The notes under the pieces are model-generated. The model was not told the origin of the DNA. It saw only the letters and a program-made list of their open reading frames with translations, and did not search any database. This document shows, piece after piece, positions 32,081 to 39,568 of a stretch of 64,000 nt of DNA. The stretch is from an uncultured virus (IMG/VR IMGVR_UViG_3300024259_000022) (Duplodnaviria; Heunggongvirae; Uroviricota; Caudoviricetes), in IMG/VR virus record IMGVR_UViG_3300024259_000022. One strand, 5' to 3'. A program made the translations under genes and the position numbers. Within the stretch, counting starts at the first letter, position 1. Every line of letters starts with the position of its first letter.

Positions 32081-32602
32081 CTATAAATTTATCTCAAATT
32101 CTTTATCTTTATCATTTATAAAAACTAACTTATCAAAAGAAATCTCTGTGCCTTCTACAAAGCTATCCCCTCCAAATTGAGCAGCTTCACCCTTCTCAAC
32201 ATAAGCAATAGTACAATGTGGCTGATACTTGTTAAATGATTCTGTTACATCTAACTTTCTTTTTATATCCTCATGTAATCTTCTAAGATCTTCACTAATA
32301 ATCTCAATCTTAACTACATCAAAATCAGGACTCTTCTTAAAATAAGAAACTTTTCCTAATTTTATTTTTATAGATTTGTAACTCTTAGCTATTTCTTTAA
32401 CAGATTCTACACTATTGTCACAAACTCCATAGATTACCGTTATATGGGTGTCTGTCTCTCTCCCCTTGCCTTCCTCCTTGCATAAGATACTATCTGAGAT
32501 ATTATCCTTGCCCCACTTCTTAATCTTACTAGCGGGCTTCTGAGGAAGTCTTACGGCTATCCATCCACTACACTCTTTTTTTGCTCTTTTATACCAATTC
32601 AT
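32081..32602 (-). CDS. 2H phosphoesterase, Acb1/T4 57B-like anti-CBASS nuclease candidate
   Basis: Two HxT motifs THITVIYG and YQPHCTIAY; SEDLRRLH segment; MNWYKRA tag. Confidence 0.75.
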   Translation of the reverse strand: MNWYKRAKKECSGWIAVRLPQKPASKIKKWGKDNISDSILCKEEGKGRETDTHITVIYGVCDNSVESVKEIAKSYKSIKIKLGKVSYFKKSPDFDVVKIEIISEDLRRLHEDIKRKLDVTESFNKYQPHCTIAYVEKGEAAQFGGDSFVEGTEISFDKLVFINDKDKEFEINL

Positions 32603-32977: not shown

Positions 32978-34168
32978 TTAATTACTCATTCCCTCTGTTC
33001 CTGACCCCTCATTATATAAAAACTCAATATCATCTTGAGATAGTGTCTTAGTAAATATGCAGAAGTTATCTAAATCACCATCATAATAATTAGCAGGAGT
33101 TCCTGAAACATTATTTGCTCCGACATATAATAAGTGAGGAGAAGTAGTGAAAGAATCCATATCATTTGCCACATTACCACTTGTTTTTACAAATACACCA
33201 TCAACATATAGTTTTATATTCATAGTGTTAGTATCAACTTCTTGAGCTGTTATAGTAATCATTCTCCAGTCGTTACCAACATTATCTGTAAACACTTCAG
33301 ATGGAGTAGTAATAGTAGTTAATGCTGTTGCCTTATACTCAAAAGAAATTTTACCATTTGAATCTAAAATAATGTTATAATAGTTAGTAGCGGCAGTCCC
33401 CTCAACACCTGCAAAAGACTGTAGTGAAGATGCAGATGGATGACCATCAAGAGGTTTTGCCCAAAAATTAAAACTAAAACCATCAACAAAAATAGGAGGT
33501 GGGCCTAAGGCTGCAGTAGCAATAAAATCAGAAAAACCGTTAAATGATAATGACGTATTTATCTTACCTGATACTGTTAATCCTGAAGTATTTGCCTGAG
33601 CAGTTCCATCATTTCCATACTCATTAATAATATTAGTATTAGATAAATTATCATTCATCTTATACTGGAGTATTGTATCACTAGTTAAATCTATTGAGAT
33701 ACTCTCAGTTAATACCCAATCAGTAATATCGTAACCAGCGTCTAAACTTAAATTACTCCAACCAACAGGACACGAGTTAGTATATAAAAATGCTGAAGAC
33801 CAATAAGAGTCCATCTCTACATTAATCCAGTTATCAAGTTTCTCTTTATCAGTGCCATCAAAACTGCTATTACTAACAACATGATTATTAACCGTTCTGA
33901 CAGCATCTAACAAACTAGCAATATTAGTTGCTATATTTAAAGACTGAATATAAGCCGCATTGTAAGGTGATAGAAGTGCTGACTCTATTTCTAATGCTGC
34001 ATCTGCATCAGCAACAGACGGTGTAGAGTCTGGATATGTAGTTGTATCAACATCTACGATCCCGTCAAGAGCAGATCTAGCATTAGCAGCCACGCCCGAC
34101 AACGCAACTTCGACTGCCGCATATGCTTGTGATATCGTATTATATAAGACTGGATCTATTTGGGCCAT
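32978..34168 (-). CDS. MAQID-domain protein fused to a LamG/concanavalin-like domain
   Basis: Likely start MAQIDP at 34168; GKINTSLSFNG, FSFNFWAKP, IKLYVDG, YDGDLDNFCIFTKTLSQDDIEFLYNEG. Confidence 0.8.
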   Translation of the reverse strand: MAQIDPVLYNTISQAYAAVEVALSGVAANARSALDGIVDVDTTTYPDSTPSVADADAALEIESALLSPYNAAYIQSLNIATNIASLLDAVRTVNNHVVSNSSFDGTDKEKLDNWINVEMDSYWSSAFLYTNSCPVGWSNLSLDAGYDITDWVLTESISIDLTSDTILQYKMNDNLSNTNIINEYGNDGTAQANTSGLTVSGKINTSLSFNGFSDFIATAALGPPPIFVDGFSFNFWAKPLDGHPSASSLQSFAGVEGTAATNYYNIILDSNGKISFEYKATALTTITTPSEVFTDNVGNDWRMITITAQEVDTNTMNIKLYVDGVFVKTSGNVANDMDSFTTSPHLLYVGANNVSGTPANYYDGDLDNFCIFTKTLSQDDIEFLYNEGSGTEGMSN

Positions 34169-34240
34169 AAGGATTTTATCCAATATATCATTACTTAATA
34201 ATATATTATCGTTTCTTAGACAAAATCCTTGAATATTTTT

Positions 34241-34273
34241 AAAAAAAAGAGCCATCCTGTAAGACGACTCTTT
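34241..34273 (-). terminator. Intrinsic terminator
   Basis: AGAGTCGTCT..GGATGGCTCT followed by T8. Confidence 0.7.
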
Positions 34274-34453
34274 AGGGGCGGTACTGAATGGTATTCAATA
34301 ACGCACTTCCACCAAATTACTTAAGGTAATCAATCTAGGGCGCATAGTTAAATGAATTGGCATCTAACCACCTGCGGTCCACCAAGTTGCTTGAGGCAAC
34401 TAATCTAACTAATCTGACCTATATAACTGATAAGGCAATATAGGTTCTACAGT
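34241..34453 (-). ncRNA. Candidate ~210-nt structured RNA with two covarying repeat units
   Basis: Lies between a TTGACA-N16-TATACT promoter and a terminator; no plausible ORF; compensatory stem changes between the repeats. Confidence 0.55.
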
Positions 34454-34458
34454 CAGAT

Positions 34459-34486
34459 AGTATATCACATTAATATCACTTGTCAA
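34459..34486 (-). promoter_or_regulatory. Sigma70-type promoter
   Basis: TTGACA-16 nt-TATACT with extended TG. Confidence 0.7.
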
Positions 34487-34602
34487 TAGTTATTTTAAAA
34501 ATTGTTTCATCATTAAGAATAACTGCCTGAGGAGGTAATAAAACCCAACCTACCTTATATTCCTTTGATATAATCCTATACCAAATCCTTTTAAAATAAT
34601 AT

Positions 34603-34830
34603 TTAAATTTTTTCATCATGCTCTTCTAATATATTCTCAATACATTGAAGGAACTCTTCCCCTGTCCAATTCCTATGAAAACCACCTCCCTGAGCTTCAT
34701 CAAATCCCCAAGTAAGGTTAATATTCATCTTACTAGCATCTCTCAAGGTTCTTCCAACATATCTCGTAGATTCATCTAAAGTCTTCTCTTTCGTAAAACC
34801 AACTTTTGTATTCACTTCTTTTATATTCAT
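34603..34830 (-). CDS. Hypothetical protein
   Basis: GGAG RBS. Confidence 0.55.
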   Translation of the reverse strand: MNIKEVNTKVGFTKEKTLDESTRYVGRTLRDASKMNINLTWGFDEAQGGGFHRNWTGEEFLQCIENILEEHDEKI

Positions 34831-34844
34831 TTATTTCTCCGAAA

Positions 34845-35090
34845 TTAACACCATCTCTCATAATATTCTTTACCATGCTTATCATCAATAGGATAAACTC
34901 TAAACTCTAATTTTACAAAATTCTCACTACCACACTTAGAACAAAACCAAGCAGCATTGTAATTACCTGGAAAATTGTAATGAAAATTAAATACTTCCTT
35001 GTTCCTATGCTCACAGTGAGCACATTGCCATACGTAAAACGTTTTCTTCGGTTGCATACTTTCTCCTTTGAATAAAATTAATCTATTCAA
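34845..35090 (-). CDS. Small zinc-ribbon protein (likely start MQPKK at 35057)
   Basis: WQCAHC..WFCSKC; AAGGAG RBS before the internal ATG. Confidence 0.6.
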   Translation of the reverse strand: MNRLILFKGESMQPKKTFYVWQCAHCEHRNKEVFNFHYNFPGNYNAAWFCSKCGSENFVKLEFRVYPIDDKHGKEYYERWC

Positions 35091-35229
35091 AAGAATCTAA
35101 ATATAATAAACATTAGTACAATCTCCTGCCAGTAATTCCTAGCTTTTTCATAATTTTAAGCACAGCATTAATCTTTTTTCTTGACTTCTTTTTCATATTT
35201 ATATATCGACAGATTCGATAAGTGGACAT

Positions 35230-35292
35230 AAAAAGTCGCCCTTGCGAGCGACTCTTCTTAGTTGGTTAAGCCAACAAGTCATTGACGTAGTA
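35230..35292 (-). ncRNA. Candidate ~60-nt small RNA or attenuator leader
   Basis: Promoter TTGAAA-N16-TATAAT (35298-35325); GTTGG-CTTAA-CCAAC hairpin; AGTCGC..GCGACT-T5 terminator. Confidence 0.45.
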
Positions 35293-35327
35293 ATATTATT
35301 ATATCAAATAACTTTCGCTTTTCAATG

Positions 35328-36657: not shown

Positions 36658-38505
36658 TTATATGTTTGATTTTTTAAAAATAAATATTGGCTCAGTATGA
36701 AATGTGTCTCCCACTTTCCTATGATAAGAACTATTTGCTAATCTCATATGATAAGTCTTTTCCAACTCCCATTTCTCTCTCTTACAATAAGCACATATAT
36801 CATCTGCTATTTTATATTTCTCTGTGTTCTTAATATTTATTGCCAAAAACCCATATTCTTTTAATAATCTTTTACTATAATCGACTATATTATATAAAAA
36901 ATTCTGTAACCAATTCTCATAATTTTCATATTTGTTACAACTTTGAGACATCTCTTCGGAATATATTTCTACATTCCAATAGGGAGGACTAGTAAATATT
37001 AAATCATATTCTTCTCTTATTTCTGACATAACTTCTTCTGCCATTCCCATATCAAATCTAAATCTATATTTATAAATCCTCTCTCCTAGAACATTGTATT
37101 GGGAAGAAAAGAAATTGGCCATCTCCATATTCCCAACAGCGGTTTTACCATTAGGATCTATTCCATGATAAAATATATTTCTATTAGAAGCTATACACCC
37201 TGCTAATCTACCACTATATCCAGAACAAGGATCTAACACCTTTCCTCCCTCAGGACAATAATTATCATAAATAAGCTTAGCAATAGTAGGCTTAAAATTA
37301 ACAACAGATCTAACTCCTTTTCTTGTTTTTAAAATTTTCCTCACCCCAGCATGATTAGGAGTTTTTCCCAATTCTAACCATCTATTTATACAATCCTTAA
37401 ACTTATCATCGTTATTATAAGCTTGACATGGACTCACTTCTCCACCTCTTTTATAATATGCATCCATCATATGGGGGTGAAAACTATTGACTAGATCTAA
37501 TCCATTAAAATTCATTTGTAAATTATCATCTTCTAACAAAATGTCTTTACTTTTTATAATCCTATCCATTCTATTTTCTTTTTGCTCATCTGTGAGAGAT
37601 ATATAAGGAAAACCATTTCTTCTATAATATTGAAAAAACATTTCAACAACTTGTCTTTTTATATCTTCTCCGCTTTCCTGATAAATTTTTAACATTTTTT
37701 TGAAATGTTTAGTATTATCTATATTCTCCCAGTGAGACAAAGAGCAATGGCGAATGTAATCACTTTTTTTTCTATCGAATAAGGAAGATTTTATTTTAAT
37801 AATATTATGATCGGTACTAGAAACCCTTAAAATAATATTATCTTTCTTATTGTTTTTATTTCCGTCATTTTTATAAAAATCCATAAACGATTCTACTATC
37901 CTTTTCTTCCTATCTATCCTAAACCCAACATTACTACAATAATCAAACGTATTAATTGTAAAAGTATAAGCTTTTTTAGATGAACGATCATTTGATACCA
38001 TCCTCATCTCGCCTGTCTTTACTTTCAACCCATCTAATATACTTTTAAAGCTGCTTGTCCATTTGGATATATTTTTAAAACCAACCCTATACCTAATATA
38101 TCCATCTGAAGCATTAACTTTTGTAATCCATCCATCTGAGTCCATTATCCCCTGTGAAAAAGATATTTTAAAATCATTATTTTTATATACAAAAGAAGGT
38201 ATTATTGTTTTATCTTTTGTCAATTCTTTTAAAAAGAAAACAATTTGCTTAGAACACACAACAAGTTGATAATATGAGATTTTTCCATCTTTTCTAACAG
38301 TTTTTATTCTTCCTTTCTTATCAAACAGGCTGTCAACTATATTATAACACTTTTCGCAAAAATCATAGTCCTCTGATGTTATGGAAAATTGATAAGTGTC
38401 CTTACCAACATACAAACATCCATCTCCAAGAAGAGACCCTATTAAATAAGCGAAATCTTTTGTATATACATCTTTTGAAATTTCAATATGTTTGCCCACA
38501 AGCAC
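36658..38505 (-). CDS. LAGLIDADG endonuclease - RHH - amino-DNA methyltransferase fusion
   Basis: AYLIGSLLGDG and FSQGIMDSDG; IILRVS..KSDYIR RHH-like linker; LDPCSGYSGRL and TSPPYW. Confidence 0.85.
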   Translation of the reverse strand: MLVGKHIEISKDVYTKDFAYLIGSLLGDGCLYVGKDTYQFSITSEDYDFCEKCYNIVDSLFDKKGRIKTVRKDGKISYYQLVVCSKQIVFFLKELTKDKTIIPSFVYKNNDFKISFSQGIMDSDGWITKVNASDGYIRYRVGFKNISKWTSSFKSILDGLKVKTGEMRMVSNDRSSKKAYTFTINTFDYCSNVGFRIDRKKRIVESFMDFYKNDGNKNNKKDNIILRVSSTDHNIIKIKSSLFDRKKSDYIRHCSLSHWENIDNTKHFKKMLKIYQESGEDIKRQVVEMFFQYYRRNGFPYISLTDEQKENRMDRIIKSKDILLEDDNLQMNFNGLDLVNSFHPHMMDAYYKRGGEVSPCQAYNNDDKFKDCINRWLELGKTPNHAGVRKILKTRKGVRSVVNFKPTIAKLIYDNYCPEGGKVLDPCSGYSGRLAGCIASNRNIFYHGIDPNGKTAVGNMEMANFFSSQYNVLGERIYKYRFRFDMGMAEEVMSEIREEYDLIFTSPPYWNVEIYSEEMSQSCNKYENYENWLQNFLYNIVDYSKRLLKEYGFLAINIKNTEKYKIADDICAYCKREKWELEKTYHMRLANSSYHRKVGDTFHTEPIFIFKKSNI

Positions 38506-38695: not shown

Positions 38696-39568
38696 TTAAG
38701 AAGCATTTGCATCGGTCATAGTAATTTTAGAAATTGCATAGTCGTTAATTACAACGATACCAATTTCTTCATATATAACCCAGCCGAGTCTCAATTTTTT
38801 AGGATCATCAGCAGGTAGAACTGTGATGTCTTGACGAATTGGGAAAGCTCCAACTGTTTCAGGACTTGCTACTACAAGAACTGTATTACTATCCATACGT
38901 GAAGAAACATGGATATCAGCAGTCCACAAATGACCGTACAAGCCAGTTGTGATAATTTCTCTCTGAGTTGCCTCATCGTAGAAGTCCTTACCGAAAGTTC
39001 TAATGCTAGCATACTGGAAAGCATGTGTAACAATTTTAGCTGCTACTAGGTCATGCTGTTCGATCTGCTTAAATGCTTCGTTCAACGCAGGAATCGTTAG
39101 AGTTCCATAGTTGGTAATACTTTGTGCTCCAGGACACGCTGTCAAAAGAGCATTAAAGATATTACTATCTTCTTCCTTTTGAATCGCTTCTTTAGCCTTG
39201 ATCTGTGCTCTGTCTACGATGTAGAATCTACGAGCTTTGATCTCAGACAGTCTAACTGTTGGGTTAGCTGCGATTTCAAAAGTTGGGACTAACACTTCTT
39301 CAGCTTCTTGAATCTGATCAGGTACAGCACCTCTACGAGATACAACCCAAGCAATAGCTGCAACGTCACGCTCATATCTTGCAAGAGCGCCTTGTGGCAA
39401 TTCATCGACCATAAGAAGTTTTCTTCCTACAGCTTGATACTCAAGAGCCCTACGGATAGGTTCTACCATTGCCTGAGCAAGAGCAGTTCTACCTTCGTCA
39501 GTCTCAAGAGCCTGAGCAATTACCATTTCTTTTTCTTGGTCACTAAGACCGTTTTTATCAAATGCCAT
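38696..39568 (-). CDS. Major capsid protein (HK97 fold, short encapsulin-like type)
   Basis: ALAQAMVEPIRRALEYQAVGRKLLMVDELPQG..VPTFEIAANP..LGWVIYEEIG; strong RBS and terminator; follows protease and decoration genes. Confidence 0.88.
   Translation of the reverse strand: MAFDKNGLSDQEKEMVIAQALETDEGRTALAQAMVEPIRRALEYQAVGRKLLMVDELPQGALARYERDVAAIAWVVSRRGAVPDQIQEAEEVLVPTFEIAANPTVRLSEIKARRFYIVDRAQIKAKEAIQKEEDSNIFNALLTACPGAQSITNYGTLTIPALNEAFKQIEQHDLVAAKIVTHAFQYASIRTFGKDFYDEATQREIITTGLYGHLWTADIHVSSRMDSNTVLVVASPETVGAFPIRQDITVLPADDPKKLRLGWVIYEEIGIVVINDYAISKITMTDANAS

What the first reader, a model, noticed from the sequence alone, without database searches (positions are those of the whole stretch)
34241..34486. 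Candidate novel structured ncRNA with two covarying 30-nt repeats spaced 70 nt apart
Seen (minus strand): a sigma70-type promoter, then TAGATTA-GTTGC-CTCAA-GCAAC-TTGGTGGA (34378-34407) and TAGATTG-ATTAC-CTTAA-GTAAT-TTGGTGGA (34308-34337). Each is followed by a different hairpin closed by CGC/GCG and CCCTA, then a terminator. Four of the six differences between the repeats are compensatory stem changes. There is no ORF. Inference: a functional RNA. The 30-nt repeat plus 40-nt spacer geometry recalls crRNA mimics (RNA anti-CRISPRs) or type III antitoxin repeats; a protein sponge is also possible.
Basis: partly seen in the sequence, partly recalled or inferred. Interest (0 to 1): 0.75.

Follow-up and report, generated by a model that had tools for sequence, protein, structure and literature searches.

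The report
New structured small RNA of huge phages
A short non-coding RNA gene with its own promoter and terminator, built from one to four copies of a conserved two-hairpin module, recurs in a group of very large bacteriophages beside genes that disarm bacterial immunity, and it matches no described RNA family.

Summary
On the minus strand a near-consensus sigma70 promoter (34486-34459) and a strong intrinsic terminator (34273-34238) bracket about 215 nt. This stretch holds two 66-73-nt modules. Each module is a 6-bp hairpin with a CUYAA pentaloop (HP1) abutting a long irregular hairpin (HP2) closed by UGG-U-GG / CCCUR.

The window comes from a huge phage related to Bacillus phage G. I found 32 distinct homologous RNA genes in relatives and metagenomes, with 1-4 modules each. 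Across 42-44 distinct modules HP1 is 99% paired, with double-sided changes in 5 of 6 pairs. The distal HP2 stem covaries in 6 of 6 pairs. Loop and flanks stay constant.

There is no Rfam match and no tRNA. No CRISPR-like or ToxI-like arrays turned up in bacterial genomes, and no ToxN, Cas or RT neighbours. Recurrent neighbours are an Acb1-like 2H phosphoesterase, once a Tad5-family gene, HTH proteins and a capsid-gene tail.

Best reading (about 0.4): an abundant, host-polymerase-transcribed, trans-acting decoy or scaffold RNA whose hairpin modules bind a protein, probably in counter-defence. Rivals are a nut/put-like antitermination signal, a crRNA or antitoxin mimic, an aptamer or a ribozyme. 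Expression could not be checked. It is a real, new RNA family whose function is only inferred.

The parts
34459..34486 (-). Sigma70-type promoter: -35 TTGACA (34486-34481), 16-nt spacer with TG, -10 TATACT (34464-34459). The -35 lies in the last codons (..ITIDK*) of a 47-aa capsid-tail-like ORF.
   Evidence: 11 of 12; same promoter type in 19 of 28 homologous genes that have enough upstream sequence.
34408..34452 (-). 5' leader from the predicted start (about 34452) with a non-conserved 8-bp hairpin (34445-34417) and UAG-rich single strand.
   Evidence: z = -1.1, not significant on its own; the leader differs in homologs.
34335..34407 (-). Module 1: UAGAUU, HP1 (34401-34385, 6 bp, loop CUCAA), UGGUGGA, HP2 with a 10-bp distal stem, CCCUAG.
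   Evidence: -21.4 kcal/mol; 46.5 bits; 32.4 bits.
34272..34337 (-). Module 2: UAGAUU, HP1 (34331-34315, loop CUUAA), UGGUGGA, HP2, CCCCUAA. This is the terminator-proximal 'full' module, closest to the family consensus.
   Evidence: -13.4 kcal/mol; 45.3 bits; 66.8 bits, E = 3e-17.
34238..34273 (-). Intrinsic terminator: 12-pair stem, 4-nt loop, U8. Its 5' arm begins AAGAGU, like the 5' flank of each module.
   Evidence: a T-run follows the last module in 30 of 31 homologous genes.
35230..35325 (-). Second, minimal RNA gene of the same kind: promoter TTGAAA-16-TATAAT (35325-35298), HP1-type hairpin GUUGG-CUUAA-CCAAC (35275-35261), terminator (35252-35230). It has no UGGUGGA and no HP2.
   Evidence: (16.4 bits, hairpin only).
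32081..32602 (-). Acb1-like / LigT-like 2H phosphoesterase (starts MNWYKRAKKEC..). In many relatives it is the gene right after the RNA's terminator. Here it is separated from the RNA by a LamG-domain ORF (32978-34167/34255) and a 123-aa ORF.
   Evidence: 2_5_RNA_ligase2 1.9e-9, Acb1 3.3e-7; phrog_755.

Best explanation
This is a gene for a small, highly structured, non-coding RNA of a huge phage. Host sigma70-type RNA polymerase starts at a near-consensus promoter and stops about 215 nt later at a strong intrinsic terminator, so the product should be abundant. That architecture is shown; expression is inferred. The RNA is modular. Each module presents a 6-bp hairpin with an invariant CUYAA pentaloop, an invariant U-A third pair, a 5' AGAGU/AGAUU flank and a 3' UGG(UGGA) flank. 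This hairpin stacks directly on a second hairpin whose base (GG/CC) and 3' shoulder (..CAACUAC-GGCCC) are also conserved. Stems covary freely while loop, flanks and bulges do not. Module number varies from 1 to 4, and upstream modules keep little more than HP1 and its flanks. The most likely mechanism, which is inferred, is that each HP1 module is a binding site for one protein partner of host or phage. The RNA would act in trans as a decoy or scaffold that titrates or assembles that partner early in infection. Its position in a cluster of accessory genes that includes an Acb1-like phosphoesterase, and in one relative a Tad5-family gene, makes a counter-defence role the most likely purpose.
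For: Gene architecture. In homologs, 19 of 28 genes with at least 100 nt of upstream sequence have a promoter scoring at least 10 of 12 that ends 8-66 nt before the first module, and 30 of 31 have a T-run after the last module.

Structure: all 48 cells paired in the first 8 modules. HP1 is 99.2% paired over 42 distinct modules, with 73 double-changed cells, 0 of 500 shuffles as high, and slid controls at 24-50% paired. For the full module over 44 distinct rows, the HP2 distal stem is 94.9% paired with 6 of 6 pairs changed on both sides, and the base helix is 94.9% paired.

Selection independent of pairing: a metagenome pattern scan fixed only one of the six HP1 pairs. It returned 48 loci, of which 27 had all 6 pairs formed. 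A 28th, L118, had 4 of 6 but is a clear model match. The other 20 had 5 or fewer pairs and looked coding.

Modularity: 20 genes have 1 module, 9 have 2, 2 have 3 and 1 has 4.

Four of 25 genes are followed by a separate strong promoter for the next gene, so in those cases the RNA unit ends a transcript rather than leading one.

Context: Acb1/2H phosphoesterase genes lie in L120, L121, L126, L141 and L150 and downstream in the window, L003 and L004. A Tad5-family gene (E = 1.9e-31) lies upstream in L120.

No known RNA family or tRNA matches.
Against: No partner protein is identified. A complete 548-kb relative that carries the RNA has no Cas6_C or CsrA match, and the ToxN search was uninformative because its control was silent.

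Nine of 28 genes lack their own strong promoter and sit directly after an ORF stop. This also fits a cis-acting 3'-end element.

In 11 of 25 genes the next ORF starts 36-50 nt after the T-run with no promoter scoring at least 10 of 12 between them. This fits a leader or attenuator.

The number of invariant single-stranded and bulged nucleotides around the HP1/HP2 junction is as typical of an aptamer or ribozyme core as of a protein site.

The invariance of the loop and of UGGUGGA in pattern-derived members is partly forced by the search pattern. The base helix shows only one-sided changes.
Confidence: 0.4

Rival explanations
1. Cis-acting processive antitermination signal (lambda nut-like, protein-dependent; or HK022 put-like, RNA-only). 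The hairpin modules load a factor on, or themselves modify, the transcribing polymerase so that it reads through the adjacent terminator into the accessory genes at the right time. Without the factor, only the short RNA is made.
For: The position matches that of nut sites, either between a strong promoter and a terminator or at the end of an ORF just before a terminator. HP1 is a short hairpin with a 5-nt loop, covarying stem and constant loop, next to a constant single-stranded motif. This resembles boxA/boxB geometry, which I recall and see only in the listing abstracts of PMC2724277 and PMC3177189. A two-hairpin module of about 70 nt resembles put as I recall it. There are 1-3 copies per record. 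Eleven of 25 downstream genes have no strong sigma70 promoter of their own.
Against: Four of 25 genes are followed by a strong promoter for the next gene. Downstream genes are heterogeneous. A conserved AT-rich ..CGAAA.. motif between terminator and ATG could be a promoter of another class. Tandem multiplication to 4 modules and degenerate upstream modules are not features of nut or put. No N- or Q-like protein was looked for or seen.
Confidence: 0.15
2. RNA anti-CRISPR (Racr) or crRNA mimic. HP1 plus its 8-nt 3' tail imitates a host CRISPR repeat and traps Cas6- or Cas7-type proteins.
For: A strong promoter lies directly upstream, no cas genes are nearby, and other anti-defence genes are. These are the features listed for Racrs in PMC10651486 (abstract and passages read). 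The hairpin of 15-17 nt followed by 8 nt recalls Cas6-processed repeats (recalled).
Against: No similar repeats occur in arrays in one genome each of 185,579 species. The only true match is a 2.2-kb copy of the phage locus binned into an archaeal MAG. In 401 genomes of one phylum there were only single hits, at the level of the reversed control. Spacing between hairpins runs from about 35 to 116 nt. The 'spacer' is a conserved, covarying hairpin. HP1 stems differ within one RNA, whereas a mimic should track one repeat.
Confidence: 0.07
3. Type III antitoxin or antitoxin mimic (ToxI-like). Tandem RNA repeats neutralise an endoribonuclease toxin, either the downstream gene product or a host ToxN-type abortive-infection toxin (pseudo-ToxI style).
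For: Promoter, repeats, Rho-independent terminator and downstream gene form exactly the arrangement described for type III loci (PMC5086642, passages). Module number varies as in phage pseudo-ToxI expansion (PMC3475682, listing abstract only). Some modules are only 35-37 nt apart.
Against: None of 98 neighbouring ORFs in 24 loci, and none of the window's ORFs, match ToxN, AbiQ or any nuclease toxin family. Twenty of 32 genes have a single module. No bacterial locus with such repeats was found. The predicted fold is two hairpins, not the H-type pseudoknot described for these antitoxins.
Confidence: 0.05
4. A ligand-binding or catalytic RNA. It would be an aptamer (a riboswitch for the downstream gene, or a trans-acting sponge for an immune signalling nucleotide) or a new self-cleaving ribozyme that cuts multi-module transcripts at the conserved AGAGU linkers.
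For: Many invariant nucleotides cluster at the junction, bulges and shoulder of two covarying helices. The neighbours act on cyclic or ADP-ribose-derived nucleotides or on 2',3'-cyclic phosphate ends (Acb1/LigT-like 2H enzyme, Tad5 family). The conserved AGAGU precedes every module and the terminator.
Against: There is no alternative antiterminator pairing, and module and terminator abut without overlap. Upstream modules lose the HP2 core yet keep HP1. Nothing resembles any riboswitch or ribozyme family in Rfam 15. The downstream genes are diverse.
Confidence: 0.1
5. A purely cis-acting 3'-end or insulator cassette. It would be a structured 3' UTR plus terminator that stabilises the upstream message (ancestrally the capsid mRNA) and insulates accessory genes, possibly also serving as a recombination module like T4 PeSLs.
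For: Nine of 28 copies have no own promoter and follow an ORF stop directly. Upstream ORFs often end like the major capsid protein. The cassette sits among shuffled accessory genes.
Against: Nineteen of 28 copies have a near-consensus promoter that would make only the RNA. PeSLs are described as composite terminator/promoter motifs (PMC4122927, passages), which is a different order of parts from the promoter, RNA, terminator seen here. A simple stabiliser needs no invariant loop and flanks.
Confidence: 0.1

Closest known systems
RNA anti-CRISPRs (Racrs / solitary repeat units), PMC10651486
   Same: A phage-encoded small RNA behind a strong promoter. It is built around a short hairpin with fixed flanks, lies among counter-defence genes, and is proposed to work by trapping a protein.
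   Different: No CRISPR repeat resembling HP1 was found. The second hairpin is conserved. The hairpin is repeated 1-4 times at irregular spacing, and stems differ between copies.
Type III antitoxin RNAs (ToxI, CptI, TenpI, antiQ) and phage pseudo-ToxI, PMC5086642 and PMC3475682
   Same: Promoter, tandem RNA units, intrinsic terminator and next gene, with variable unit number.
   Different: There is no ToxN-type toxin. Most genes have one unit. The fold is two hairpins rather than a pseudoknot, and units are 35-75 nt and unequal.
Lambda-type nut sites (boxA/boxB) and HK022 put RNAs
   Same: A small hairpin with a 5-nt loop and constant loop sequence beside a constant single strand. A two-hairpin module of about 70 nt. 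Placement between promoter and terminator or at the end of an ORF before a terminator.
   Different: The loop and flank sequences are unrelated. The modules are multiplied in tandem. Some are followed by an independent promoter. No N-like protein is known here. The definitions of nut and put are partly recalled.
Multi-site protein-sponge sRNAs (CsrB/RsmZ type)
   Same: Repeated short hairpin modules with a constant motif, variable copy number, and a strong promoter and terminator.
   Different: The constant motif is not a GGA loop. No CsrA homolog is found in the complete relative. The RNA is phage-encoded and the partner is unknown.
T4-type PeSL cassettes, PMC4122927
   Same: Short conserved promoter and stem-loop elements between accessory genes in a plastic region.
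   Different: PeSLs are described as composite terminator/promoter motifs. Here the order is promoter, then RNA, then terminator, giving a separate 70-215-nt transcript with a conserved, covarying internal structure.

Membership tests
Any Rfam 15 family | Covariance-model match at the gathering score, or any consistent sub-threshold match | tested here: not met
   There were 0 gathering hits in the whole window. In 34100-34650 at E up to 10 there were only unrelated snoRNA and RatA hits with E at least 0.24. Across 8 homologous loci nothing relevant appeared at E up to 1.
tRNA / tmRNA | Cloverleaf or tRNA-like domain detectable by ARAGORN | tested here: not met
   0 genes in the window.
RNA anti-CRISPR (Racr) | Sequence and structure similarity to a CRISPR repeat | tested here: not met
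   A pattern scan of one genome each of 185,579 species gave 5 stretches. One is a copy of the phage locus and 4 are coding look-alikes with 3-5 of 6 pairs. In 401 genomes of one phylum there were 19 single hits, at the level of the reversed control, and no arrays. The host is unknown and the patterns were strict, so a diverged repeat is not excluded.
RNA anti-CRISPR (Racr) | Promoter within 250 bp upstream, no cas genes nearby, often beside other anti-defence genes | tested here: met
   (promoters). (no Cas families among 98 ORFs; Acb1-like and Tad5-family neighbours, which are not anti-CRISPRs).
RNA anti-CRISPR (Racr) | Binds Cas6/Cas7 and inhibits interference | not testable with these tools
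   Needs biochemistry or a phage assay.
Type III toxin-antitoxin (antitoxin RNA) | Tandem array of nucleotide repeats followed by a Rho-independent terminator | tested here: inconclusive
   The terminator is present in 30 of 31 genes. Only 12 of 32 genes have 2 or more modules, and the modules are unequal.
Type III toxin-antitoxin (antitoxin RNA) | Downstream ToxN/AbiQ/CptN/TenpN-type endoribonuclease | tested here: not met
   No such Pfam family was found in 10 window ORFs or in 98 ORFs of 24 loci. The ToxN search of three records found nothing, but its control was silent.
Type III toxin-antitoxin (antitoxin RNA) | Pseudoknotted monomer released by toxin cleavage | not tested
   Minimum-energy folds give two hairpins. 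Pseudoknots were not modelled.
Lambda-type nut site | boxB-like short hairpin with 5-nt loop plus conserved single-stranded box, between promoter and terminator | tested here: met
   The geometry is met. The sequences are unrelated as far as I recall, and no nut model exists to test against.
Lambda-type nut site | Cognate N-type protein and dependence of downstream genes on read-through | tested here: inconclusive
   Eleven of 25 downstream genes lack a strong sigma70 promoter and 4 of 25 have one. No search for N- or Q-like proteins was made.
CRISPR mini-array | Near-identical repeats separated by unstructured, variable spacers of about 30-40 nt | tested here: not met
   The repeats are 80% identical. 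The interval is a conserved covarying hairpin. Spacing in homologs is about 35-116 nt.
PeSL regulatory cassette | Composite terminator/promoter motif between genes | tested here: not met
   The parts are ordered promoter, then RNA, then terminator, not as the composite terminator/promoter motif described. Definition from PMC4122927, passages.

The most novel reading that the evidence does not exclude
The RNA is an RNA-only counter-defence factor of a kind not yet described. It would be neither a CRISPR-repeat mimic nor a ToxI mimic. Instead it would be an abundant early decoy whose HP1/HP2 modules trap a host immune sensor, or sequester an immune signalling nucleotide as an RNA 'sponge'. It would work alongside the Acb1-like and Tad5-family proteins encoded beside it.
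Probability: 0.15. Interest if true: 0.85.

Novelty: new variant of a known kind. Interest (0 to 1): 0.62.

Why it matters
Huge phages carry large sets of accessory and counter-defence genes, but few of their non-coding RNAs have been described. Here is an RNA family with unusually clean evidence: dozens of distinct members, near-perfect pairing with abundant compensatory change, and invariant loop and junction nucleotides. It has a simple, portable gene architecture and sits next to Acb1-like and Tad5-family genes. If it proves to be a decoy for an immune protein or signal, it would add a second class of RNA-based counter-defence beside RNA anti-CRISPRs. If it is an antitermination signal, it would be the first of its type in phage G-like viruses. 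Either way it gives a short, well-defined RNA with clear mutational predictions to test.

Tried and rejected
1. Exact and stem-degenerate patterns of the window's own repeats found nothing in viral contigs or metagenome contigs. The window's record itself is not in those collections.

2. Relatives of the two flanking proteins (425 aa and 75 aa) were not found in viral contigs. Homologs came only through the capsid protein followed by blastn.

3. blastn against GenBank phages gave one chance hit of 36 nt.

4. Model R1 found the RNA in only 3 of 81 capsid-centred loci (80 from viral contigs plus the phage G locus). It found nothing in phage G or in four other large relatives. The two weak hits there are coding sequence.

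5. T-box-like, anticodon-mimic, K-turn and Shine-Dalgarno readings of UGGUGGA and CUUAA were considered from the sequence and dropped, because none fits all members. The box C/D-like Rfam hits at 34446-34518 (E = 0.24) fall on the coding tail ..ILNDE.. and the promoter.

6. I considered whether HP1 is a docking site for the shared N-terminal MNWYK(R/K) peptide of neighbouring proteins. MNWY starts are as common in complete relatives without the RNA (14 and 7) as in one with it (12), so the link is not supported.

7. A 22-codon ORF inside module 1 is not conserved in L003 or L004.

8. The catalogue of 10,006 viral candidate structured RNAs (PMC10690425) could not be checked. Its alignment archives were too large to be searched, and the files that were searched had no match. 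The family may be listed there.

10. Earlier notes of this scan held nothing on this genome or sequence.

Full report
**What is in the window**

On the minus strand the sequence reads as follows:
- a -35 TTGACA at 34486-34481
- a 16-nt spacer holding TG
- a -10 TATACT at 34464-34459
- about 45 nt of leader
- two similar modules, at 34407-34335 and 34337-34272
- a 12-pair terminator stem at 34273-34246 followed by eight U

The promoter matches 11 of 12 consensus positions. It is the only site in 33800-35200 that exceeds 10 of 12. The terminator is the only terminator-like site in that stretch.

The two 30-nt repeats are 80% identical and 70 nt apart. A pattern built from them finds only these two sites in 64 kb with up to 3 mismatches, against 0.00 expected from 100 shuffles.

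Five of the six differences lie in a 6-bp stem and all keep it paired: two G-C to A-U exchanges and one A-U to G-U. The sixth is in the loop.

Folded separately, both modules adopt the same architecture:
- HP1, with 6 bp and a CUCAA or CUUAA pentaloop.
- Directly abutting it, a long hairpin HP2. The base of HP2 is formed by UGG-(bulged U)-GG with CC-C-U-A. Next comes a CGC/GCG or GCG/CGC step, then a distal stem of different sequence.

The whole 218-nt RNA folds at -62.4 kcal/mol, z = -3.36, with 0 of 200 shuffles as stable.

There is no ORF on this strand. The 425-aa ORF listed from 34255 begins at an ATG inside the terminator's 3' arm, and more likely starts at 34167.

**What the window is**

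The ORF at 38696-39568 (minus) is 55% identical to the major head protein of Bacillus phage G. The window therefore comes from a huge phage of that lineage. No whole genome is held for it.

The ORFs around the RNA are accessory genes:
- a LamG-domain protein
- an Acb1-like / LigT-like 2H phosphoesterase (32081-32602)
- HTH_38 proteins
- a LAGLIDADG-methylase fusion

**Homologs**

Direct pattern scans for the window's own repeats found nothing, and neither did the flanking proteins.

The capsid protein recovered 121 related stretches in viral contigs, of which 80 were kept with 10 kb on each side. blastn of the RNA region against these found L003 (E = 2e-17, 68% identity over 199 nt) and L004. 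Both show the same gene: the same promoter type, two modules and a terminator.

A structural descriptor then found a second, single-module gene in L004 and one in L006.

I ran a pattern that fixed only the constant positions, namely AGAKT, T9, CTTAA, A21 and TGGTGGA. This leaves five of the six HP1 pairs free. In metagenome contigs it returned 48 loci. In 27 of them all six pairs form. One more (L118) has four pairs but is a clear model match. The other 20 have five or fewer pairs and look like coding sequence.

A looser version in viral contigs returned 28 loci. Four were true, and all four came from the contigs already known.

In one genome each of 185,579 prokaryote species, the pattern gave 5 stretches. 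Only one was true. It is a 2.2-kb contig whose shown sequence is identical to L006, binned into an archaeal MAG, and it is most simply a phage fragment.

**Structure is conserved by selection**

- First 8 modules: 48 of 48 cells pair, and 5 of 6 pairs change on both sides.
- All matches of the 30-nt model (55 matches, 42 distinct): 99.2% of cells pair. There are 73 double-changed cells against 22 ± 6 in shuffles, with 0 of 500 shuffles as high. Slid controls are 24-50% paired.
- Full-module model (R2, 65 positions), 48 matches, 44 distinct: HP1 is 99.2% paired. The HP2 distal stem is 94.9% paired with all six pairs changed on both sides. The base helix is 94.9% paired but shows only one-sided changes (U-A/U-G, G-U/G-C).

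Two caveats apply. The model-made alignments lean towards the model's structure. Also, the constancy of the loop, of T9/A21 and of UGGUGGA in pattern-derived members was imposed by the pattern.

Members found independently of the pattern are L003 and L004 by blastn and the upstream modules by the model. They show the same loop (CUUAA, with CUCAA and CUUUA as variants), the same U-A third pair and the same 5' AGAGU/AGAUU flank. The 3' flank relaxes to NUGG in upstream modules.

**Gene architecture across the family**

There are 32 distinct genes. Twenty have 1 module, nine have 2, two have 3 and one has 4.

Of 28 genes with at least 100 nt of upstream sequence, 19 have a promoter scoring at least 10 of 12. 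It ends 8-66 nt before the first module and is often TTGACAAGTGAAAG..TATAAT. This promoter type elsewhere in these phages leads straight into Shine-Dalgarno-led genes.

The other nine genes lie directly after an ORF stop. Examples are a group behind a 70-aa membrane-protein ORF, and L125, L147 and L160.

Thirty of 31 genes have a T-run after the last module.

The terminator-proximal module is always the complete one: UGGUGGA, then a distal stem GUUGAR/YUCAAC, then UAC, then GGCCC. Upstream modules keep HP1 and its flanks but carry short, variable second hairpins.

Every module, and the terminator's 5' arm, is preceded by AGAGU or begins with it.

The window also holds a minimal second gene of this kind at 35325-35230. 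It has a promoter, an HP1-type hairpin and a terminator.

**Distribution**

Whole-record searches gave 2, 3 and 1 modules in the records of L003, L004 and L006. The L006 record is 548 kb and rated complete. No credible match appeared in the records of L001 and L007. There was also none in phage G, or in four further large relatives with 74-88% capsid identity. The two weak hits there are coding sequence.

The RNA is therefore confined to a sub-lineage, at 1-3 modules per record. It is not a dispersed repeat.

**Context**

Upstream there is often an ORF ending ..ILNDE..ITIDK*, like the C-terminus of the capsid protein. Its last codons supply the -35 (window, L117, L126, L131, L141, L153).

Downstream, 11 of 25 genes are followed after 36-50 nt by an ORF starting MNWY(K/N).. 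In most of these the ORF is the Acb1-like 2H phosphoesterase, and no promoter scoring at least 10 of 12 lies between. Four of 25 are followed by a strong promoter.

Among 98 neighbouring ORFs of at least 70 aa in 24 loci, Pfam finds:
- Acb1/2_5_RNA_ligase2, in five loci
- a Tad5-family Thoeris inhibitor (E = 1.9e-31, L120)
- HTH_38/HTH_23, LamG, a DNA methylase, HNH and a glycosyltransferase
- no ToxN-type toxin, Cas protein or reverse transcriptase

**What it is not**

No Rfam family matches at gathering score in the window, or at E up to 10 around the locus, or at E up to 1 in eight homologous loci. There is no tRNA or tmRNA.

It is not a CRISPR mini-array. The repeats are unequal, and the interval between them is a conserved covarying hairpin. 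Spacing varies from about 35 to 116 nt.

A CRISPR-repeat mimic predicts similar repeats in host arrays. None was seen in the species-wide scan or in 401 genomes of one phylum, where 19 single hits equalled the reversed-pattern control. The host is unknown and the patterns were strict, so this lowers the idea but does not exclude it.

A type III toxin-antitoxin locus has the same layout of promoter, repeats, terminator and gene (PMC5086642, passages read). But the defining toxin is missing, most genes have a single module, and the fold is not a pseudoknot.

PeSL cassettes of T4-type phages are described as composite terminator/promoter motifs (PMC4122927, passages), which is a different order of parts from the promoter, RNA, terminator seen here.

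**How it most likely works**

*Shown:* a conserved, independently bracketed transcription unit; two covarying helices per module; constant loop, flanks and bulges; variable module number; accessory and counter-defence neighbours.

*Inferred:* the RNA is made abundantly by host polymerase. Each HP1 module, with its AGAGU and UGG flanks, is a binding site. The RNA acts in trans as a decoy or scaffold for a protein, probably in counter-defence. I put this at about 0.4.

The main rival, at 0.15, is a nut/put-like antitermination signal. It explains the placement before terminators and the 11 downstream genes without a sigma70 promoter. It does not explain the four cases with an independent promoter or the tandem multiplication.

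The other readings are:
- an aptamer or ribozyme (0.1)
- a cis-acting 3'-end cassette (0.1)
- a Racr (0.07)
- a ToxI-like RNA (0.05)

**Limits**

No host is known and no partner has been found. Part of the apparent sequence invariance is search-imposed. The catalogue of viral candidate structured RNAs (PMC10690425) could not be searched at the level of its alignments, so an earlier unnamed listing of this motif cannot be excluded. My literature searches turned up no description of it.

Noticed in passing
window 36598, 36176, 32974, 32602 (minus-strand start codons): Four ORFs with unrelated bodies (an HTH_38 protein, a 2H phosphoesterase and two unknowns) all begin MNWYKR. They have no Shine-Dalgarno sequence and start at or overlapping the previous stop codon. 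The same start occurs in 15 of 82 sequences examined (the window plus 81 capsid-centred loci). It occurs 12, 14 and 7 times in three complete relatives and 0 times in phage G. It is independent of the RNA. It could be a shared targeting or translation-start tag.
   Followed up: partly
window 35230-35325 (-): A second, minimal RNA gene: promoter TTGAAA-16-TATAAT, one HP1-type hairpin (GUUGG-CUUAA-CCAAC) and a terminator, with no second hairpin.
   Followed up: partly
window 34476-34619 (-): A 47-aa ORF ending ..VILNDETIFKITIDK* resembles the C-terminus of the major capsid protein (38696-39568). It also resembles ORFs just upstream of the RNA in six other loci. This suggests the RNA gene ancestrally followed the capsid gene directly, and that mobile genes were later inserted with a duplicated capsid tail.
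   Followed up: partly
window 36658-38505 (-): A 615-aa ORF combining a LAGLIDADG_3 domain (N-terminal) and an N6_N4 DNA methylase domain (C-terminal), immediately downstream of the capsid gene.
   Followed up: no
L120:2389-2985 (-), L120:21-578 (-): A Tad5-family (type I Thoeris inhibitor) gene lies upstream of the RNA gene and an Acb1-like gene lies downstream, on the same strand. This makes a compact counter-defence island.
   Followed up: no
after the terminators in L003, L004, L120, L121, L123, L126, L141, L150; window about 24760 (-): A recurrent AT-rich motif (..AAAAATAAAGGTTTTT.. then ..YCGAAAAT..) sits 10-14 nt before the MNWY start codons. In the window it occurs once before a Shine-Dalgarno-led gene. 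It may be a promoter of a non-sigma70 class or a leaderless-start signal.
   Followed up: partly
L167 (contig of 2,212 bases in genome contigs): A copy of the L006 RNA locus sits on a short contig binned into an Asgard archaeon MAG. This is most likely a mis-binned phage fragment.
   Followed up: no
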